Source: Octopus vulgaris (lineage: Eukaryota). From it: a DNA stretch of 64,000 nt. The notes beneath the pieces were generated by a model that was given only the letters and a program-made list of their open reading frames with translations, was not told the DNA's origin and ran no database searches. Shown here in pieces: positions 5,056-61,346 of this stretch; the first letter of the stretch is position 1, and each line of letters starts with the position of its first letter. The DNA lies in contig OX597818.1 in the NCBI GenBank assembly GCA_951406725.2, forward strand, positions 98,270,001 through 98,334,000, in the 5' to 3' direction. The position numbers and the translations under genes are program-made.

Positions 5056-5483
5056 AAATAAGCAACAAGGATATCCAGAGGTAATTCAGTACGATCGTTT
5101 CATGCAACTGAATTTAATTGAGCAATGCAATCATTACATCAATTTAAAATGTAGAGCAATCTTCAGCTGCACAAAGATATAGAATTTAATTAAATTAGAA
5201 CAGATTGACACATTAGTATAATTATACATAAAATCTCCAAGAAGTTAAGGAGATAGACAAAGAACATGTTATGTTGTACCTACAACAACAGGTACTTCTT
5301 GGAGATTTTAGGTATAATTATACTTATATGTACATCTGTTCTAATTTAATTAAGTTCTATATCTTTGTGCAGCTGATGATTGCTCTACATTTTAAATTGA
5401 TGTAATGATTGCATTGTTCAATTAAATGGAGTTGCATGAAACGATCGTACTGCATTACATTTGGATGTCATTGTTGCTTATTT
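5056..5483. mobile_element. Fold-back element (about 190-bp arms) with an HHR motif in each arm; PLE-derived non-autonomous element
   Basis: Arms 5056-5245 and 5294-5483 are imperfect reverse complements. The right end abuts (TA)n. Confidence 0.75.
5368..5454 (+). ncRNA. Type I hammerhead ribozyme motif with extended stem II
   Basis: TGCAG-CTGATGA-[58-nt hairpin]-GAAAC-GATC-GTA-CTGCA. The antisense copy at 5086-5171 has CTGAAGA. Confidence 0.75.
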
Positions 5484-5878
5484 ATATATATATATATATA
5501 TATATATATACATCTGTCTAGGTCTCTTTCTCTCTCTCTCTTTATATATATATATATATATATATATATATATATATATATATATATATATATATATATT
5601 TATTTATTTATTCATACATACATATAGCTTTAGGTCTTTGTGTAAAATTTCGTAATGAAAGTGAAGTAATTTACTTCCGATTTTGCTATTCCAACCTAAT
5701 AAATTTGTGAGTTGAGAAGAGTGGGAGAAAAAGTTACTGAGTTTGTGTCAAAGAGGAGCGGCAGTCGTAGATCGAGTACGAAGAGTGGGGTGAAGTGGAG
5801 ATAATTCTAGTTCAGTGACCTGTAATTGATGCCATTTATCTTAAACAAATCTTGATAAAAATACAACCTTGTTCCTTG

Positions 5879-6072
5879 ATCATCATCATCATCATCATCA
5901 TCATCATCATCATCATCATCATCATCACCATCATCAACATCATCGCCATTATTCAAAACGTCGTCGTCATCACCACTACCACCACCATCATCATCATCAT
6001 CATCACCGTAGTCGTCATTATCGTCATCACCATCGTCATCACTACCGTTATCGTCATCATCGGTGTTATCAT
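5879..6072. repeat. (CAT)n-type microsatellite
   Basis: Direct reading; it explains the poly-D/H/I ORFs. Confidence 0.9.
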
Positions 6073-6207
6073 CAAATACCATCAAATCATGCTCTTAATT
6101 TTCATCCAAGTTCAGACGTCTAAAATTTCGAAACGACTCTCTTAAAATATAAATTTTGGATTTTTTATTAGAAGTTTTAAAAAATTTTACTTGTAAATCA
6201 GGAACTA

Positions 6208-6774
6208 TTGGGGTGTCCGGAAAGTTCGGGCCGATTTTTAAAGGAAAGAAAAAGGGCAATAAATACTTGCCATTACATTTTTAATCAACCAAATATGAAC
6301 CATTTTGTTGCACAGTGCGTCTCCATCTTTCCTTTAGCTTGAAAATACCCTCTTCCCAGAATTGAGGTGGTTTCATAGCAAAGAATTCATCAAGGTATCT
6401 TTTTACGTAATCCAAGAAATTGAAACTTTTACCATTAAGACTATTTTGCAGAGACCTGAATAAATGGAAATCCGAAGGAGCAATATCTGGTGAATATGGC
6501 GGGTGAGGTAACACATCCCAGCCGAGCTGCAGCAATTTTTTTCTGGTTCGCAAAGCATCAAGTGCCGAAAATGAACTTTCTTATCTTCTATTTTAAAGGG
6601 TTACAGATATTTACACAGGTTATAGGAACATAACACTTCTTCCACGAAAAGATAGCTTAAACTGTGCTCTAAATGGAGGTGTAGTTAAATCCTATTTTAT
6701 GAACTCAACCACGTTCTAAAATAAGTCGAAAGGTAAGCTACTACAAATCAGCACGAACTTTCCGGACAACCCAA
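6208..6774 (-). mobile_element. Non-autonomous mariner deletion derivative, copy 2
   Basis: Same TIRs and TA flanks as copy 1. Encodes WDVLPHPPYSPDIAPSDFHLFRSLQNSLNGK. Confidence 0.9.
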
Positions 6775-6859
6775 TATATTACGGATATAATTTAACCGCT
6801 GCCCAACTGCAAAATTTCTGTTTTAAAGAGGGTTGAGGTAAAATTTTTCCCATGATTAA

Positions 6860-57871: not shown

Positions 57872-57945
57872 CAGTGGTTCCCAATCTTTTCATTACCAAG
57901 GACCCCTTTTATTTAAATAAGTTTTCCCACGGACCCCTTTTAATT
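57872..57945 (+). mobile_element. Single terminus of a hAT (Charlie-like) element
   Basis: CAGTGGTTCCCAA preceded by GTCTAGAA, which fits an NTCTAGAN target. The other end was not found. Confidence 0.5.
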
Positions 57946-58956
57946 TGCTTATCTTTATGTATGTAAGTATGTATGTATGTATGTATGTATGTATATAAAT
58001 ATATATATATATATGTATATATATGTATATATATATATATATATATATATATACACACACACATATATATATATATATACATATATATATATGTGTATAT
58101 ATATATATATATATATATATATATATATATATATATATATATATATATATATAAGAAAGTTTGTTTGGTAAAGCACGTGGGTGAATATATAAGAAAATAG
58201 TAAAGTGTGAAAAAACGACAGAAGGCTTAAATGTTAAAAATTATATATATTTGTGTCAAAATGTCTGGAGAATATTGGAAAAATTTTTTTCCTTTCCTTA
58301 AAATGATATAATTTTAAAATTTTTAAAGAAATTACCGGTTTCGCGTGTAGCTTTTCAAATTTCTTGTGACGTTATGTTTATATTGCATGGAATTATCGTT
58401 GTTTTTATTTCCAGGAGATTTCTAAATAAGGGGAGGTAGTGAGTGGTTTTTTCCGGTGTAGGGGAGATAATCGCTTAAAAATTTTTTTCCCATTTCCTTG
58501 TTAATTTCTCTGTGTCAGTATGTTCGGATGGTTGAGTCTGGGTTTGTACTTTTCAATGAAGAATGTTTCCTTGTTCAGTCTCATTTGTGTTGATGATCCG
58601 AAAGCACATTGGTAAAATGGGAAGATTAAAAATTGTGGCAGTAGTTGCTTTGCGCATTTCTCAATGTGCTCACTAAAAGGTATCATTCTATATTCTGGGA
58701 ATGCAATCTGTTGTCGATGCAGTGTGCATCTGCGCCTGAGTGATAGTCCCGTGGAACCCACGTAGTCTTGGTGGCAGCCCGAGCATTTAATAACATAAAT
58801 TATGTTTTCAGAGGCACAAGTAAAGTTAGATTTGATCTTAAATTTCTGTCCCTCTTTAAAGAAGAATTCTGATCCTTCCAATAGGTTAGGACATGTTGCA
58901 CAGTTCGATCTACCACATTTTTTTACTTTTGCATCCGTAATTTTAGAAGACAATTT

Positions 58957-61170
58957 CGCAAAAGGGCTCAAATTTACACCAACTCCACGCAGAGCAAACC
59001 TAAATGAACTCAAGGATAATATAACAGAATTTTGCAGAAAATTAAGACTAGCAGAAGCATCAAACAGTTTCAATACTGAAGATGAATCACTTGTCAAGAA
59101 CAAAAGTGAACACATCCCACACAGAGGAAGAAATAAAGATCTTGACGAATTCTGTAACCACATTGAGAACTTCCCCTACCATACTATACATAAACAGAAA
59201 GCTAACCCAAATTTTAACAATACACAATGGAAAGAACTGATAGAACTCCAAAATGATGAAGATATAACCATTAAGGAAGCGGACAAGGGAAATGCAGTTG
59301 TAATAATGGATACATCATACTACAGAAATCTTGTAATTTCCTTGCTTGATGAAGACCTACATTATGAAAAAATTACCAACTACACCCCACAAAAAATAAT
59401 GAAAACTCTATCTTCACTAATTAAAACCCTTGAAAAGGAACTGACAACCAAAGAGATTGATTTCCTAACAAACTTTAAATGCAAACCTAGCCTTTTCTAT
59501 GGTCTGCCAAAAATTCATAAAAGTCAAATTATAAATGAAACCATTAAAAAATCACCAAAGACATACATACACACACCTAATCCGGGGGACCTAAAACTAC
59601 GACCCATTGTAGCTGGCCCAACCTGTGAAACACACAGACTAAGTCTACTTATGGACATCCTCTTGAAACCCTTCCTTAAACATATCGATAGCCATATCAG
59701 AGATGACTTAGATATGTTAAACCACCTTCCAAAAAAAACCAAGGAAGAAACAATCCTGGTTTCATTTGATGTAATCAACTTGTATACCAGTATACCTCAT
59801 AATTATGGACTGGAGGCAATACAATTCTGGTTAGACCAATTTCCGGAAGAAATACCAAAAAGGATCAGTAAGGAATTCATTACTAAATCAATTGAATTCA
59901 TCCTACACAATAACCACTTCATGTTTGACAATACATTTTACCGTCAAAAATCCGGAATTGCTATGGGTACAAGGGCAGCACCAGTCATTGCGAACTTAAC
60001 AATGGGATACATGGAAATAATCATTTACCAGGAATCTCTATCAATCTTTGGAAACTCCCTCTCTCAATACATAAAAGAGAATTGGAAACGATTCCCAGAC
60101 GATTGTTTCATTCTCTGGAATGAAAACATAGATAAACTCCTAAAATTTAAAAACCTATTGAACAGCATAAACCCAAATATACAGTTCACAATGGAATACA
60201 ACCAAAAGGAGCTCCCGTTCTTGGATATACTAATTAAAAAAATTAACCTTAAAATAGAAACAGACATTTTTTACAAAGCCACAGACGCCAAACAATACCT
60301 TCTTTTAATTCATGCCACCCAAGACACACTAAAACAAACATCCCCTTCAACCTTGCAAGAAGGATATGCACAATAGTGTCAGAACAAAATACCAGGAACT
60401 TTAGACTGCAAGAACTCAAAAACACCCTAATTGACAGACATTACCCAGCTCAACTCATAGAGGATGGGATCAGACGTGCAACAGAAATCAACATAGAAAC
60501 TTTAAGAAAAGTTCAACACAACAACACACCTTCCCCGAAAATACTACCTTACATATCTACATACAACCCCAGAAACAAAGAAGCCTTCACCATCATCACC
60601 CAGAATTTACCAATACTTCATAAAAACCCAAAATTAAAGGAAATTCTAAACATACACCAAATCATTAAAAGCTACAAACAGCCTAAATCACTTAAAAAGA
60701 TTCTCACAAAGGCAAAATTGTCTTCTAAAATTACGGATGCAAAAGTAAAAAAATGTGGTAGATCGAACTGTGCAACATGTCCTAACCTATTGGAAGGATC
60801 AGAATTCTTCTTTAAAGAGGGACAGAAATTTAAGATCAAATCTAACTTTACTTGTGCCTCTGAAAACATAATTTATGTTATTAAATGCTCGGGCTGCCAC
60901 CAAGACTACGTGGGTTCCACGGGACTATCACTCAGGCGCAGATGCACACTGCATCGACAACAGATTGCATTCCCAGAATATAGAATGATACCTTTTAGTG
61001 AGCACATTGAGAAATGCGCAAAGCAACTACTGCCACAATTTTTAATCTTCCCATTTTACCAATGTGCTTTCGGATCATCAACACAAATGAGACTGAACAA
61101 GGAAACATTCTTCATTGAAAAGTACAAACCCAGACTCAACCATCCGAACATACTGACACAGAGAAATTAA
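58957..61170 (+). CDS. PLE polyprotein: reverse transcriptase, Cys linker and GIY-YIG endonuclease; 5'-truncated, frameshift near 60303
   Basis: KGLKFTPTP, KEADKGNAVV, FYGLPKIHK, RPIV, SFDVINLYTSIP, GIAMGT, RFPDD, LPFLD. CHPRH..NIPF appears after the shift, then CGRSNCATC and NIIYVIKC..CHQDYVGST..R..H..E..PRLN. Confidence 0.9.
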
Positions 61171-61306
61171 CAAGGAAATGGGAAAAAAATTTTTTAAGCG
61201 ATTATCTCCCCTACACCGGAAAAAACCACTCACTACCTCCCCTTATTTAGAAATCTCCTGGAAATAAAAACAACGATAATTCCATGCAATATAAACATAA
61301 CGTCAC

Positions 61307-61346
61307 AAGAAATTTGAAAAGCTACACGCGAAACCGGTAATTTCTT
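61307..61346 (+). ncRNA. Minimal hammerhead motif in the PLE 3' repeat, U3:A8 variant
   Basis: AAGAAAT-TTGAAAA-GC(TACAC)GC-GAAAC-CG-GTA-ATTTCTT. An antisense copy lies at 58326-58365. Confidence 0.7.

What the first reader, a model, noticed from the sequence alone, without database searches (positions are those of the whole stretch)
5368..61346. Family of sequence-unrelated hammerhead elements whose cores covary at the 3:8 pair (C-G, U-A, G-C)
Seen: at least seven unrelated elements share the layout stem I - N3 UGA N N8 A - stem II - GAAA - tiny palindromic stem III - NUH - stem I'. Cores are CUGAUGA (5373, 14187-), CUGAAGA (19631, 30453-), UUGACAA (7685-), UUGAAAA (61314) and GUGAACA (49928). 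Positions 3 and 8 remain Watson-Crick complementary in all of these. Established: C3-G8 is a tertiary pair required in the active HHR fold, PLE repeats carry minimal type I HHRs, and palindromic stem III permits dimeric cleavage. Inference: the covariation suggests selection for catalysis, and a CUGANGA pattern search would miss these variants. The genome may hold a large undercounted set of PLE-mobilised ribozyme retroelements.
Basis: partly seen in the sequence, partly recalled or inferred. Interest (0 to 1): 0.82.

Follow-up and report, generated by a model that had tools for sequence, protein, structure and literature searches.

The report
Retroelement hammerheads with swapped core pair
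This animal genome holds tens of thousands of small hammerhead-shaped RNA motifs, some at the ends of Penelope-like jumping genes and the rest likely spread by them, and different families swap a key core base pair while keeping it paired, which likely preserves self-cutting; one swap is already published, while a second, carried by thousands of copies, was not found in the papers searched.

Summary
Observation confirmed. All seven type I hammerhead layouts are present, plus nine more copies; a strict descriptor with positions 3 and 8 free finds 7 in the window against 0.06 in shuffles. They are separate repeat families. One lies in the 3' repeat of a Penelope-like element (RT plus GIY-YIG); most occur as inverted pairs beside microsatellites; one is a 365-nt tandem, retrozyme-like repeat. 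Across fetched DNA, 17 of 17 multi-copy clusters keep 3:8 Watson-Crick (13 C-G, 3 U-A, 1 G-C). Exact genome-wide matches: G3-C8 family 6,024; two U3-A8 families 1,802 and 838. Much is known: U3-A8 in Penelope hammerheads, missed by CUGANGA searches, was published in 2014, and C3G/G8C rescue was shown in 2024. I found no published natural G3-C8 family, but one key paper was unavailable, and this scan noted G3-C8 candidates in three other genomes. Against blanket selection for catalysis: the most abundant family found (16,562 matches, outside the window) has an uncompensated A6U core, and insertions do not start at the cut site. Cleavage is untested. New variant of a known kind; moderate interest.

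The parts
5367..5455 (+). Family A hammerhead, C3-G8 (N3 5373, H17 5449), long stem II with U.U at 10.1:11.1, 8-nt palindromic stem III; right arm of inverted repeat 5056-5483
   Evidence: 891 first-look candidates in genome
5084..5172 (-). Family A inverted partner copy, C3-G8 (N3 5166), stem I partly mutated
7655..7697 (-). Family B hammerhead, U3-A8 (N3 7691, H17 7661), 6-bp stem I, 4-bp stem II, GUC triplet; in a 365-nt partial tandem repeat spanning about 7425-8057
   Evidence: fold z -2.1; 1,802 exact matches, tandem arrays
8020..8056 (-). Family B upstream tandem copy, 5'-truncated at the core, so the 5' strand of stem I is missing
14154..14197 (-). Family C minimal hammerhead, C3-G8 (N3 14193, H17 14158), extra A after A9, 4-nt palindrome
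   Evidence: 19 copies in 1.6-Mb sample
14435..14475 (+). Family C inverted partner, truncated at the core
19627..19714 (+). Family D hammerhead, C3-G8 (N3 19631, H17 19710), long stem II; right arm of 233-nt 99% inverted repeat 19269-19752
   Evidence: 1,557 first-look candidates
19307..19394 (-). Family D identical inverted partner (N3 19390)
20710..20894 (+). Family F copy, G3-C8, truncated exactly at G3, inserted in (TA)n
24440..24492 (-). Decayed copy of a further C3-G8 family (N3 24486); limits approximate
30393..30465 (-). Family E hammerhead, C3-G8 (N3 30459), decayed: stem III palindrome and stem II damaged
   Evidence: relatives 78-89% identical
30525..30608 (+). Family E inverted partner (N3 30529; A9 mutated; palindrome intact)
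49921..49970 (+). Family F hammerhead, G3-C8 (N3 49928, H17 49963), 7-bp stem I, extra G after A9, 5-bp stem II, AU-only 6-nt palindrome, UUU triplet; long arm of palindromic insertion 49776-50107
   Evidence: fold z -3.5, 0 of 200 shuffles; 6,024 exact matches
49857..49906 (-). Family F inverted partner (N3 49899; U4 mutated to G; short 3' end)
58799..61170 (+). Penelope-like ORF: RT, then C-x4-C-x2-C linker, then GIY-YIG; 5'-truncated and frameshifted in this copy
61307..61346 (+). Family G hammerhead, U3-A8 (N3 61314, H17 61339), 7-bp stem I, 2-bp stem II, GUA triplet, about 140 nt after the PLE stop codon in its 3' repeat (element ends near 61485)
   Evidence: 838 exact matches
58236..58959 (-). 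Inverted 5'-truncated copy of the same PLE (EN C-terminus plus 3' repeat) with an identical U3-A8 hammerhead at N3 58358

Best explanation
These are type I hammerhead motifs of at least seven separate repeat families: one lies in the 3' repeat of a Penelope-like retroelement, the others are likely short non-autonomous derivatives copied by the same enzymes, and their 3:8 core pair stays Watson-Crick across families, most likely because source elements were selected for a fold predicted to self-cleave as dimers. Shown: the motifs, family copy numbers, the PLE location of family G and of related U3-A8, C3-G8 and A6U motifs, inverted pairs, two clustered 3' ends next to microsatellites, tandem arrays of family B, and family-level covariation. 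Inferred, from published PLE biochemistry: the RT/GIY-YIG protein nicks AT-rich DNA and starts reverse transcription at one of two sites 120-270 nt downstream of the core, so even very short insertions carry the hammerhead. The 4-8-nt palindromic stem III would pair between two ribozymes in a tandem transcript or between two RNAs, probably with protein help, to trim precursor RNA at NUH. Selection would act on transcribed source elements; dispersed copies decay. At least three lineages switched the pair by double change: a PLE lineage to U-A, the retrozyme-like family B to U-A, and family F to G-C.
For: Window: 7 strict hits vs mean 0.06 in 200 shuffles. Unbiased 1.6-Mb sample (160 evenly spaced 10-kb pieces): strict descriptor 30 hits, 25 Watson-Crick, vs 2-5 hits per shuffle and 6 of 15 Watson-Crick; relaxed descriptor 43 of 54 vs 5 of 34. 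17 of 17 multi-member clusters have a Watson-Crick majority. The three mismatched singletons with homologues are decayed members of C3-G8 families. Hand-picked family representatives: 17 of 17 paired, 6 with double change, 0 of 500 shuffles. Genome-wide patterns with 3 and 8 free: 95, 99 and 100 of the first 100 listed are paired in F, B and G, while N7 varies freely in B. Two F subfamilies with different loop II both keep G3-C8. B shows compensatory stem changes between subfamilies. PLE links. Literature: U3-A8 PLE hammerheads, opposite-strand pairs and weak dimer cleavage (PMC4209133); single C3G or G8C kills and the double mutant partly rescues a PLE hammerhead (PMC11167929); a natural C3:A8 mismatch copy was inactive (PMC8490949).
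Against: No cleavage or RNA data. The most abundant family found has A6U without compensation (28 copies in 23 of 160 pieces; 16,562 exact matches, U6 in 96 of the first 100), and another has U4C, so PLE lineages amplify with cores expected to be slow. 5' ends of copies do not pile up at the cut site; most insertions span it. In vitro, cleavage was not needed for PLE insertion and no RNA-seq reads ended at the site (PMC11167929). Family F was not linked to any ORF: the 20 fetched longest-5' copies share no upstream sequence apart from inverted arms. Its AU-only palindrome is predicted to be barely stable (-0.2 kcal/mol). Nine mismatched relaxed hits in the sample have no homologue in my data, against about 5 per shuffle. 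The number of independent switches is small (about 3).
Confidence: 0.72

Rival explanations
1. The hammerhead fold, including the 3:8 pair, is kept as a structural or protein-binding signal for the PLE ribonucleoprotein; cleavage is weak, incidental or lost in many lineages.
For: A6U lineage with 16,562 exact matches and several N7 subfamilies; U4C family; insertions span the cut site; cleavage dispensable for insertion in vitro and seen only with protein (PMC11167929); Naiad PLEs thrive without canonical hammerheads (PMC8557442).
Against: G5, A9, G12, A13, A14, A15.1 and U16.1 show no family-level variants in the controls: extra hits were near shuffle level or single decayed copies. G17 was excluded by my descriptor, so H17 was not tested. 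The 3:8 pair belongs to the active fold (recalled; consistent). A natural A6C ribozyme still cleaves slowly (PMC3088659; PMC7151607).
Confidence: 0.2
2. Founder effect: a few source elements happened to acquire paired double changes and amplified, with no selection on the pair.
For: Only about three independent switches. The PLE-type U3-A8 families share the same stem III and probably one origin. U-A needs only two transitions. Within families the pair is simply inherited.
Against: No family with a single-change consensus among 17 clusters, although single changes should far outnumber double ones. The permutation chance is 1e-4 for 13/3/1 families and 0.004 when lumped to 6/2/1 lineages; the lumping is my assumption.
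Confidence: 0.06
3. The motifs are chance matches in AT-rich repetitive DNA.
For: No Rfam match. Monomer folding z-scores are unremarkable for 5 of 7 motifs. Loose descriptors give several chance hits per 1.6 Mb.
Against: Over 100-fold excess over shuffles; 35 high-scoring hits vs 0 in three shuffles; family conservation and position in PLE 3' repeats as published.
Confidence: 0.02

Closest known systems
Minimal type I hammerheads (min-HHR) of metazoan Penelope-like elements (Cervera and de la Pena 2014, PMC4209133)
   Same: Location in PLE terminal repeats, short or palindromic helix III, extra nucleotide after A9 in some families, thousands of dispersed truncated copies, opposite-strand pairs, many sequence families per genome, and the U3-A8 variant (about 1,300 hits in Schistosoma mansoni) that escaped the first descriptor.
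   Different: Here a G3-C8 family with 6,024 exact matches and an A6U family with 16,562. Neither is in the text parts or supplement passages I saw (one supplement file could not be searched). Several families have 40-80-nt stem II arms with U.U or A.C at 10.1:11.1.
Small dimer-cleaving PLE-associated hammerheads (Lunse, Weinberg and Breaker, PMC5785218)
   Same: By its title, seen only in a reference list: numerous small variants associated with PLEs that cleave as dimers.
   Different: Not held. I cannot say whether its collection already includes G3-C8 or A6U; this is the main gap in the novelty claim.
Non-LTR retrozymes (PMC7229834; bioRxiv 10.64898/2026.07.22.740005)
   Same: Family B: 361-365-nt tandem units, one type I hammerhead with 6-bp stem I and 4-bp stem II per unit, arrays of up to 5 units among the listed places, coexisting with PLEs.
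   Different: The core is U3-A8, whereas likely sister families here are C3-G8 (weak BLAST, colinear landmarks). Circular RNA not shown.
Natural hammerhead core variants (Perreault 2011, PMC3088659; Naghdi 2020, PMC7151607)
   Same: Natural U3-A8 covariation, U10.1.U11.1 mismatch, 2-bp stem II, U4C and A6C variants are described.
   Different: Those are rare, mostly microbial or viroid cases; the section read lists no natural G3-C8 or A6U.
Anolis PLE PAc (Frangieh 2024, PMC11167929)
   Same: Two reverse-transcription start sites that give a 'tail', AT-rich targets, hammerhead in the terminal repeat, engineered C3G/G8C partly active.
   Different: PAc is Poseidon-type with a natural C3-G8 core. 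The window element has the extra Cys linker described for Neptune/Nematis-type PLEs (no tree built).

Membership tests
Type I hammerhead ribozyme | Core N3-UGA-N-N8-A, GAAA and NUH joined by stems I, II, III, open at stem I | tested here: met
   30459 is decayed and 5373 has a U.U closing stem II
Type I hammerhead ribozyme | Watson-Crick 3:8 pair | tested here: met
   7 of 7 motifs; 17 of 17 clusters
Type I hammerhead ribozyme | Match to an Rfam hammerhead model at gathering score | tested here: not met
   0 matches in the window. I did not test how these models score published minimal PLE variants.
Type I hammerhead ribozyme | Self-cleavage 3' of H17 | not testable with these tools
   Only contigs were available
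PLE-associated minimal hammerhead | Short palindromic helix III suited to dimers | tested here: met
   Self-complementary 4-8-mers in A, B, C, D, F, G and in E relatives
PLE-associated minimal hammerhead | Located in the terminal repeat of a PLE ORF | tested here: inconclusive
   Met for G and for related motifs at L150, L165, L266, L124, L137. Not shown for A-F; F has no shared upstream sequence in 20 copies.
EN+ Penelope-like element (family G host) | Single RT plus C-terminal GIY-YIG ORF | tested here: met
   RVT_1 E 1e-6; GIY-YIG weak in the window copy (E 0.012) and above cut-off in 4 of 5 close homologues; frameshifted here, while 11 of 11 other family copies spanning the site lack the deletion
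EN+ Penelope-like element (family G host) | Adjacent inverted 5'-truncated copy, tail at one end only, microsatellite target | tested here: met
   Inverted arm 58236-58959 ends about 50 nt earlier than the forward copy; (TA)n on both sides
Non-LTR retrozyme (family B) | Head-to-tail repeats of 150-400 nt, each with a type I hammerhead | tested here: met
   365-nt partial tandem in the window, 362-nt array in L108, arrays
Non-LTR retrozyme (family B) | Expression as circular RNA | not testable with these tools
   The join is also expected from tandem DNA

The most novel reading that the evidence does not exclude
Family F is the first high-copy natural hammerhead with an inverted G3-C8 core pair, a roughly 210-nt non-autonomous retroelement with over 6,000 near-identical copies. 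Together with U3-A8, U4C and a 16,000-copy A6U lineage, this genome holds a natural mutagenesis series that can settle whether Penelope-like elements need ribozyme catalysis or only the fold.
Probability: 0.35. Interest if true: 0.62.

Novelty: new variant of a known kind. Interest (0 to 1): 0.42.

Why it matters
The role of hammerheads in Penelope-like elements is still open: they are nearly universal in some clades, absent in others, weak in vitro and dispensable for insertion in the one reconstituted system. Family-level covariation at a pair of the active fold is good comparative evidence that the fold is selected. Young, abundant families with G3-C8, U3-A8, U4C and A6U cores give ready-made constructs to ask which still cleave. 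In practice, CUGANGA descriptors would miss at least 71 of 167 sampled copies here by family consensus (27 with 3:8 swaps, 28 A6U, 16 U4C). The principle itself is published, so the gain is incremental.

Tried and rejected
Rfam scans gave no hammerhead; the top rows were microsatellite artefacts. Sequencing runs: no RNA holder listed. Contigs laid on the B unit cannot show cleavage or expression, and the 365-nt join also stands in a run of unknown kind, so it is no evidence of circles. A genomic fossil of cleavage (5' ends at the cut site) was not seen; the few starts near it in family C were mostly internal deletions or alignment limits. The search for an ORF upstream of F failed: one PLE fragment about 1 kb upstream in 1 of 20 copies, and the F copy beside an EN fragment in L124 is separated by (TA)n and faces the other way. 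A profile search found no C3-G8 sister of F in 1.66 Mb. An A3-U8 candidate (L044) was rejected: weak stems, and its one homologue lacks A9. An alternative register for the A6U family (U3.G8) was rejected by inspection: stems I and II fail and position 4 would vary freely. Apparent 3' ends at +200 to +235 for F and +216 for G are alignment run-on into (TA)n; the real long ends are about +183 and +172 (my notes 2 and 3 give F as longer and are superseded). Monomer folding is significant only for F and marginal for B. Two papers were not held.
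Full report
Setting. The window is G000:C5:98270001-98334000 of a 2.8-Gb, microsatellite-rich animal genome; my untested guess is a cephalopod. Numbering is the standard hammerhead one (recalled).

Observation. Descriptor scans with positions 3 and 8 free recovered all seven motifs. 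Five pass a strict version (stem I of at least 4 Watson-Crick pairs, stem II of at least 2, perfect palindrome between GAAA and UH). With two inverted partners that is 7 hits, against a mean of 0.06 in 200 shuffles. The motif at 5373 has a U.U at the base of stem II, a known tolerated mismatch (PMC3088659). The motif at 30459 is a decayed copy of a family with a proper palindrome. BLAST with family queries found nine more copies, 16 in all. The seven are mutually unrelated by BLAST. Rfam detects none.

What the elements are. Family G lies about 140 nt after the stop codon of an RT plus GIY-YIG ORF at 58799-61170 (its homologues are mostly 700-780-aa proteins), with an inverted 5'-truncated copy directly upstream. 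This is the published PLE arrangement (PMC8557442). The family is young: 40 scored copies are 100% identical over 101 nt, 28 of 30 fetched loci contain PLE coding sequence, and 11 of 11 other family copies that span the window's frameshift lack it. Families A, C, D, E and F each occur in the window as an inverted pair. F and B have two clustered 3' ends about 58 nt apart (F about +124 and +183, B about +207 and +266 from N3), and G's two arms end about 50 nt apart, usually against microsatellites. This matches the PLE 'tail' made by two RT start sites (PMC11167929). B is a 361-365-nt tandem repeat with one hammerhead per unit, that is, retrozyme-like (PMC7229834). F is about 210 nt long, with a fixed 5' end about 27 nt before G3 and no shared upstream sequence in 20 of 20 fetched copies. 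Its PLE dependence is inferred from its ends only.

Is the covariation real? In 160 evenly spaced 10-kb pieces the strict descriptor gave 30 hits, 25 Watson-Crick (18 C-G, 4 U-A, 3 G-C), against 2-5 per shuffle with 6 of 15 paired. A relaxed one gave 43 of 54, against 5 of 34 in six shuffles. Clustering relaxed hits over all DNA held gave 17 multi-member clusters, all with a Watson-Crick majority (13 C-G, 3 U-A, 1 G-C), and 24 singletons, 12 of them mismatched. The three mismatched singletons that have homologues belong to C3-G8 families; the other nine have none in my data and are somewhat above the shuffle rate. Seventeen hand-picked representatives are all paired, six by double change, 0 of 500 shuffles. 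Genome-wide exact patterns with 3 and 8 free gave 6,024 matches for F (95 of the first 100 G-C), 1,802 for B (99 U-A) and 838 for G (100 U-A), with reversed-pattern controls at 0. Independence is limited. The U3-A8 motifs of G, L266, L150/L047 and L166 share the same stem III; two of them follow PLE ORF fragments 53-60% identical to G's, while a more distant PLE (L165, 42-48%) has C3-G8. B resembles C3-G8 families by colinear landmarks with weak BLAST support. So about three switches are seen. The permutation chance is 1e-4 unlumped and 0.004 lumped to 6/2/1 (lumping assumed). No A3-U8 family was found.

Results against the simple reading. Freeing other core positions one at a time exposed a family with A6U, the commonest in the sample: 28 copies in 23 of 160 pieces; 16,562 exact matches, U6 in 96 and C3-G8 in 95 of the first 100. 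It lies 0.9-1.0 kb behind PLE ORFs at L124 and L137 and is absent from the window. A U4C family, first seen in a flank and then counted, has 16 sampled copies. A6 changes lower activity (A6C below 0.1 per min, PMC3088659). Copy 5' ends do not gather at the cut site, in line with uncut RNA being the main template in vitro. Opposite-strand pairs cannot form a cis dimer, and a read-through transcript would be expected to fold the two arms together, so most genomic pairs are probably inert (inference). Of the window's families, only B was seen in same-strand tandems.

Abundance. 167 core-covering copies in 1.6 Mb extrapolate to roughly 290,000 genome-wide including decayed ones. 35 high-scoring intact hits (0 in three shuffles) extrapolate to roughly 60,000. 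Both are rough inferences. 3:8-swapped lineages are 27 of 167 copies; 15 of 167 individual copies have a broken 3:8 pair, consistent with decay after insertion.

Mechanism. Most likely these are PLE and PLE-derived hammerheads whose source elements were selected for the active fold and which cleave slowly as dimers, perhaps protein-assisted, to process precursor transcripts (0.72). The main rival is retention of the fold without a need for cleavage (0.20).

Literature seen. PMC4209133: text parts 1-2 of 4 and passages of one supplement (the other could not be searched and may bear on the novelty claim). PMC11167929: parts 1-2 of 4. PMC3088659: passages and section 8. bioRxiv 10.64898/2026.07.22.740005: part 1 of 5. 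Passages only: PMC8557442, PMC7229834, PMC6765202, PMC3884650, PMC7151607, PMC12192606, PMC8490949. PMC5785218 and PMC5850863: not held, titles only. U3-A8 covariation in nature (2011) and in PLE hammerheads with the descriptor blind spot (2014) is in print; engineered G3-C8 is partly active. Searches turned up no report of a natural G3-C8 or A6U family, but the library lacks most subscription papers. This scan's notes mention G3-C8 candidates in a phage and behind two PLE-like RT genes in other genomes (unchecked), and hold nothing for this genome.

Verdict. This is a known system with one, possibly two, unreported high-copy core variants; cleavage is untested. Interest 0.42.

Noticed in passing
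L124:2367-2406(+), L137 near 6840(-); genome-wide: PLE-linked minimal hammerhead family with A6U core, 16,562 exact matches, N7 free; the most abundant family in the sample and not in the window.
   Followed up: partly
L161:4314-4353(+), L108 near 8587(+); L239, L228: Families whose core appears to be U4C (one with 16 sampled copies; a second inferred from CpG decay on both strands).
   Followed up: partly
window 5373, 30529; L098, L165: Recurrent U.U mismatch at 10.1:11.1 in several long-stem-II families; family D has A.C there.
   Followed up: partly
window 8056, 14435, 20710: Three truncated window copies begin at or one base before N3; 5' ends near the core also occur in the sample but were not tested for enrichment.
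   Followed up: partly
window 49776-49840 (+ strand, antisense to the F hammerhead): A-box-like and B-box-like words about 38 nt apart near the short end of family F; may be chance; no tRNA-like arm seen by eye.
   Followed up: no
window 36020-39337(+): Intact 1,105-aa non-LTR retrotransposon ORF (APE endonuclease, RT, zf-RVT), GC-rich, unrelated to the finding.
   Followed up: no
window 44021-44836(+): 271-aa stop-free frame that looks like the antisense of another retroelement fragment.
   Followed up: no
L296:275-717: Two inverted F arms enclose about 440 nt of unrelated, coding-looking sequence, possibly captured by template switching.
   Followed up: no
window 1687, 12588, 22303, 40227, 45236, 48399, 62527 (approx.); 41214-43424: Other dispersed SINE-like repeats and inverted repeat arms without hammerhead hits.
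   Followed up: no
L176 near 6255(+): Single high-scoring hammerhead-like hit with C in place of U16.1 and long perfect stems.
   Followed up: no
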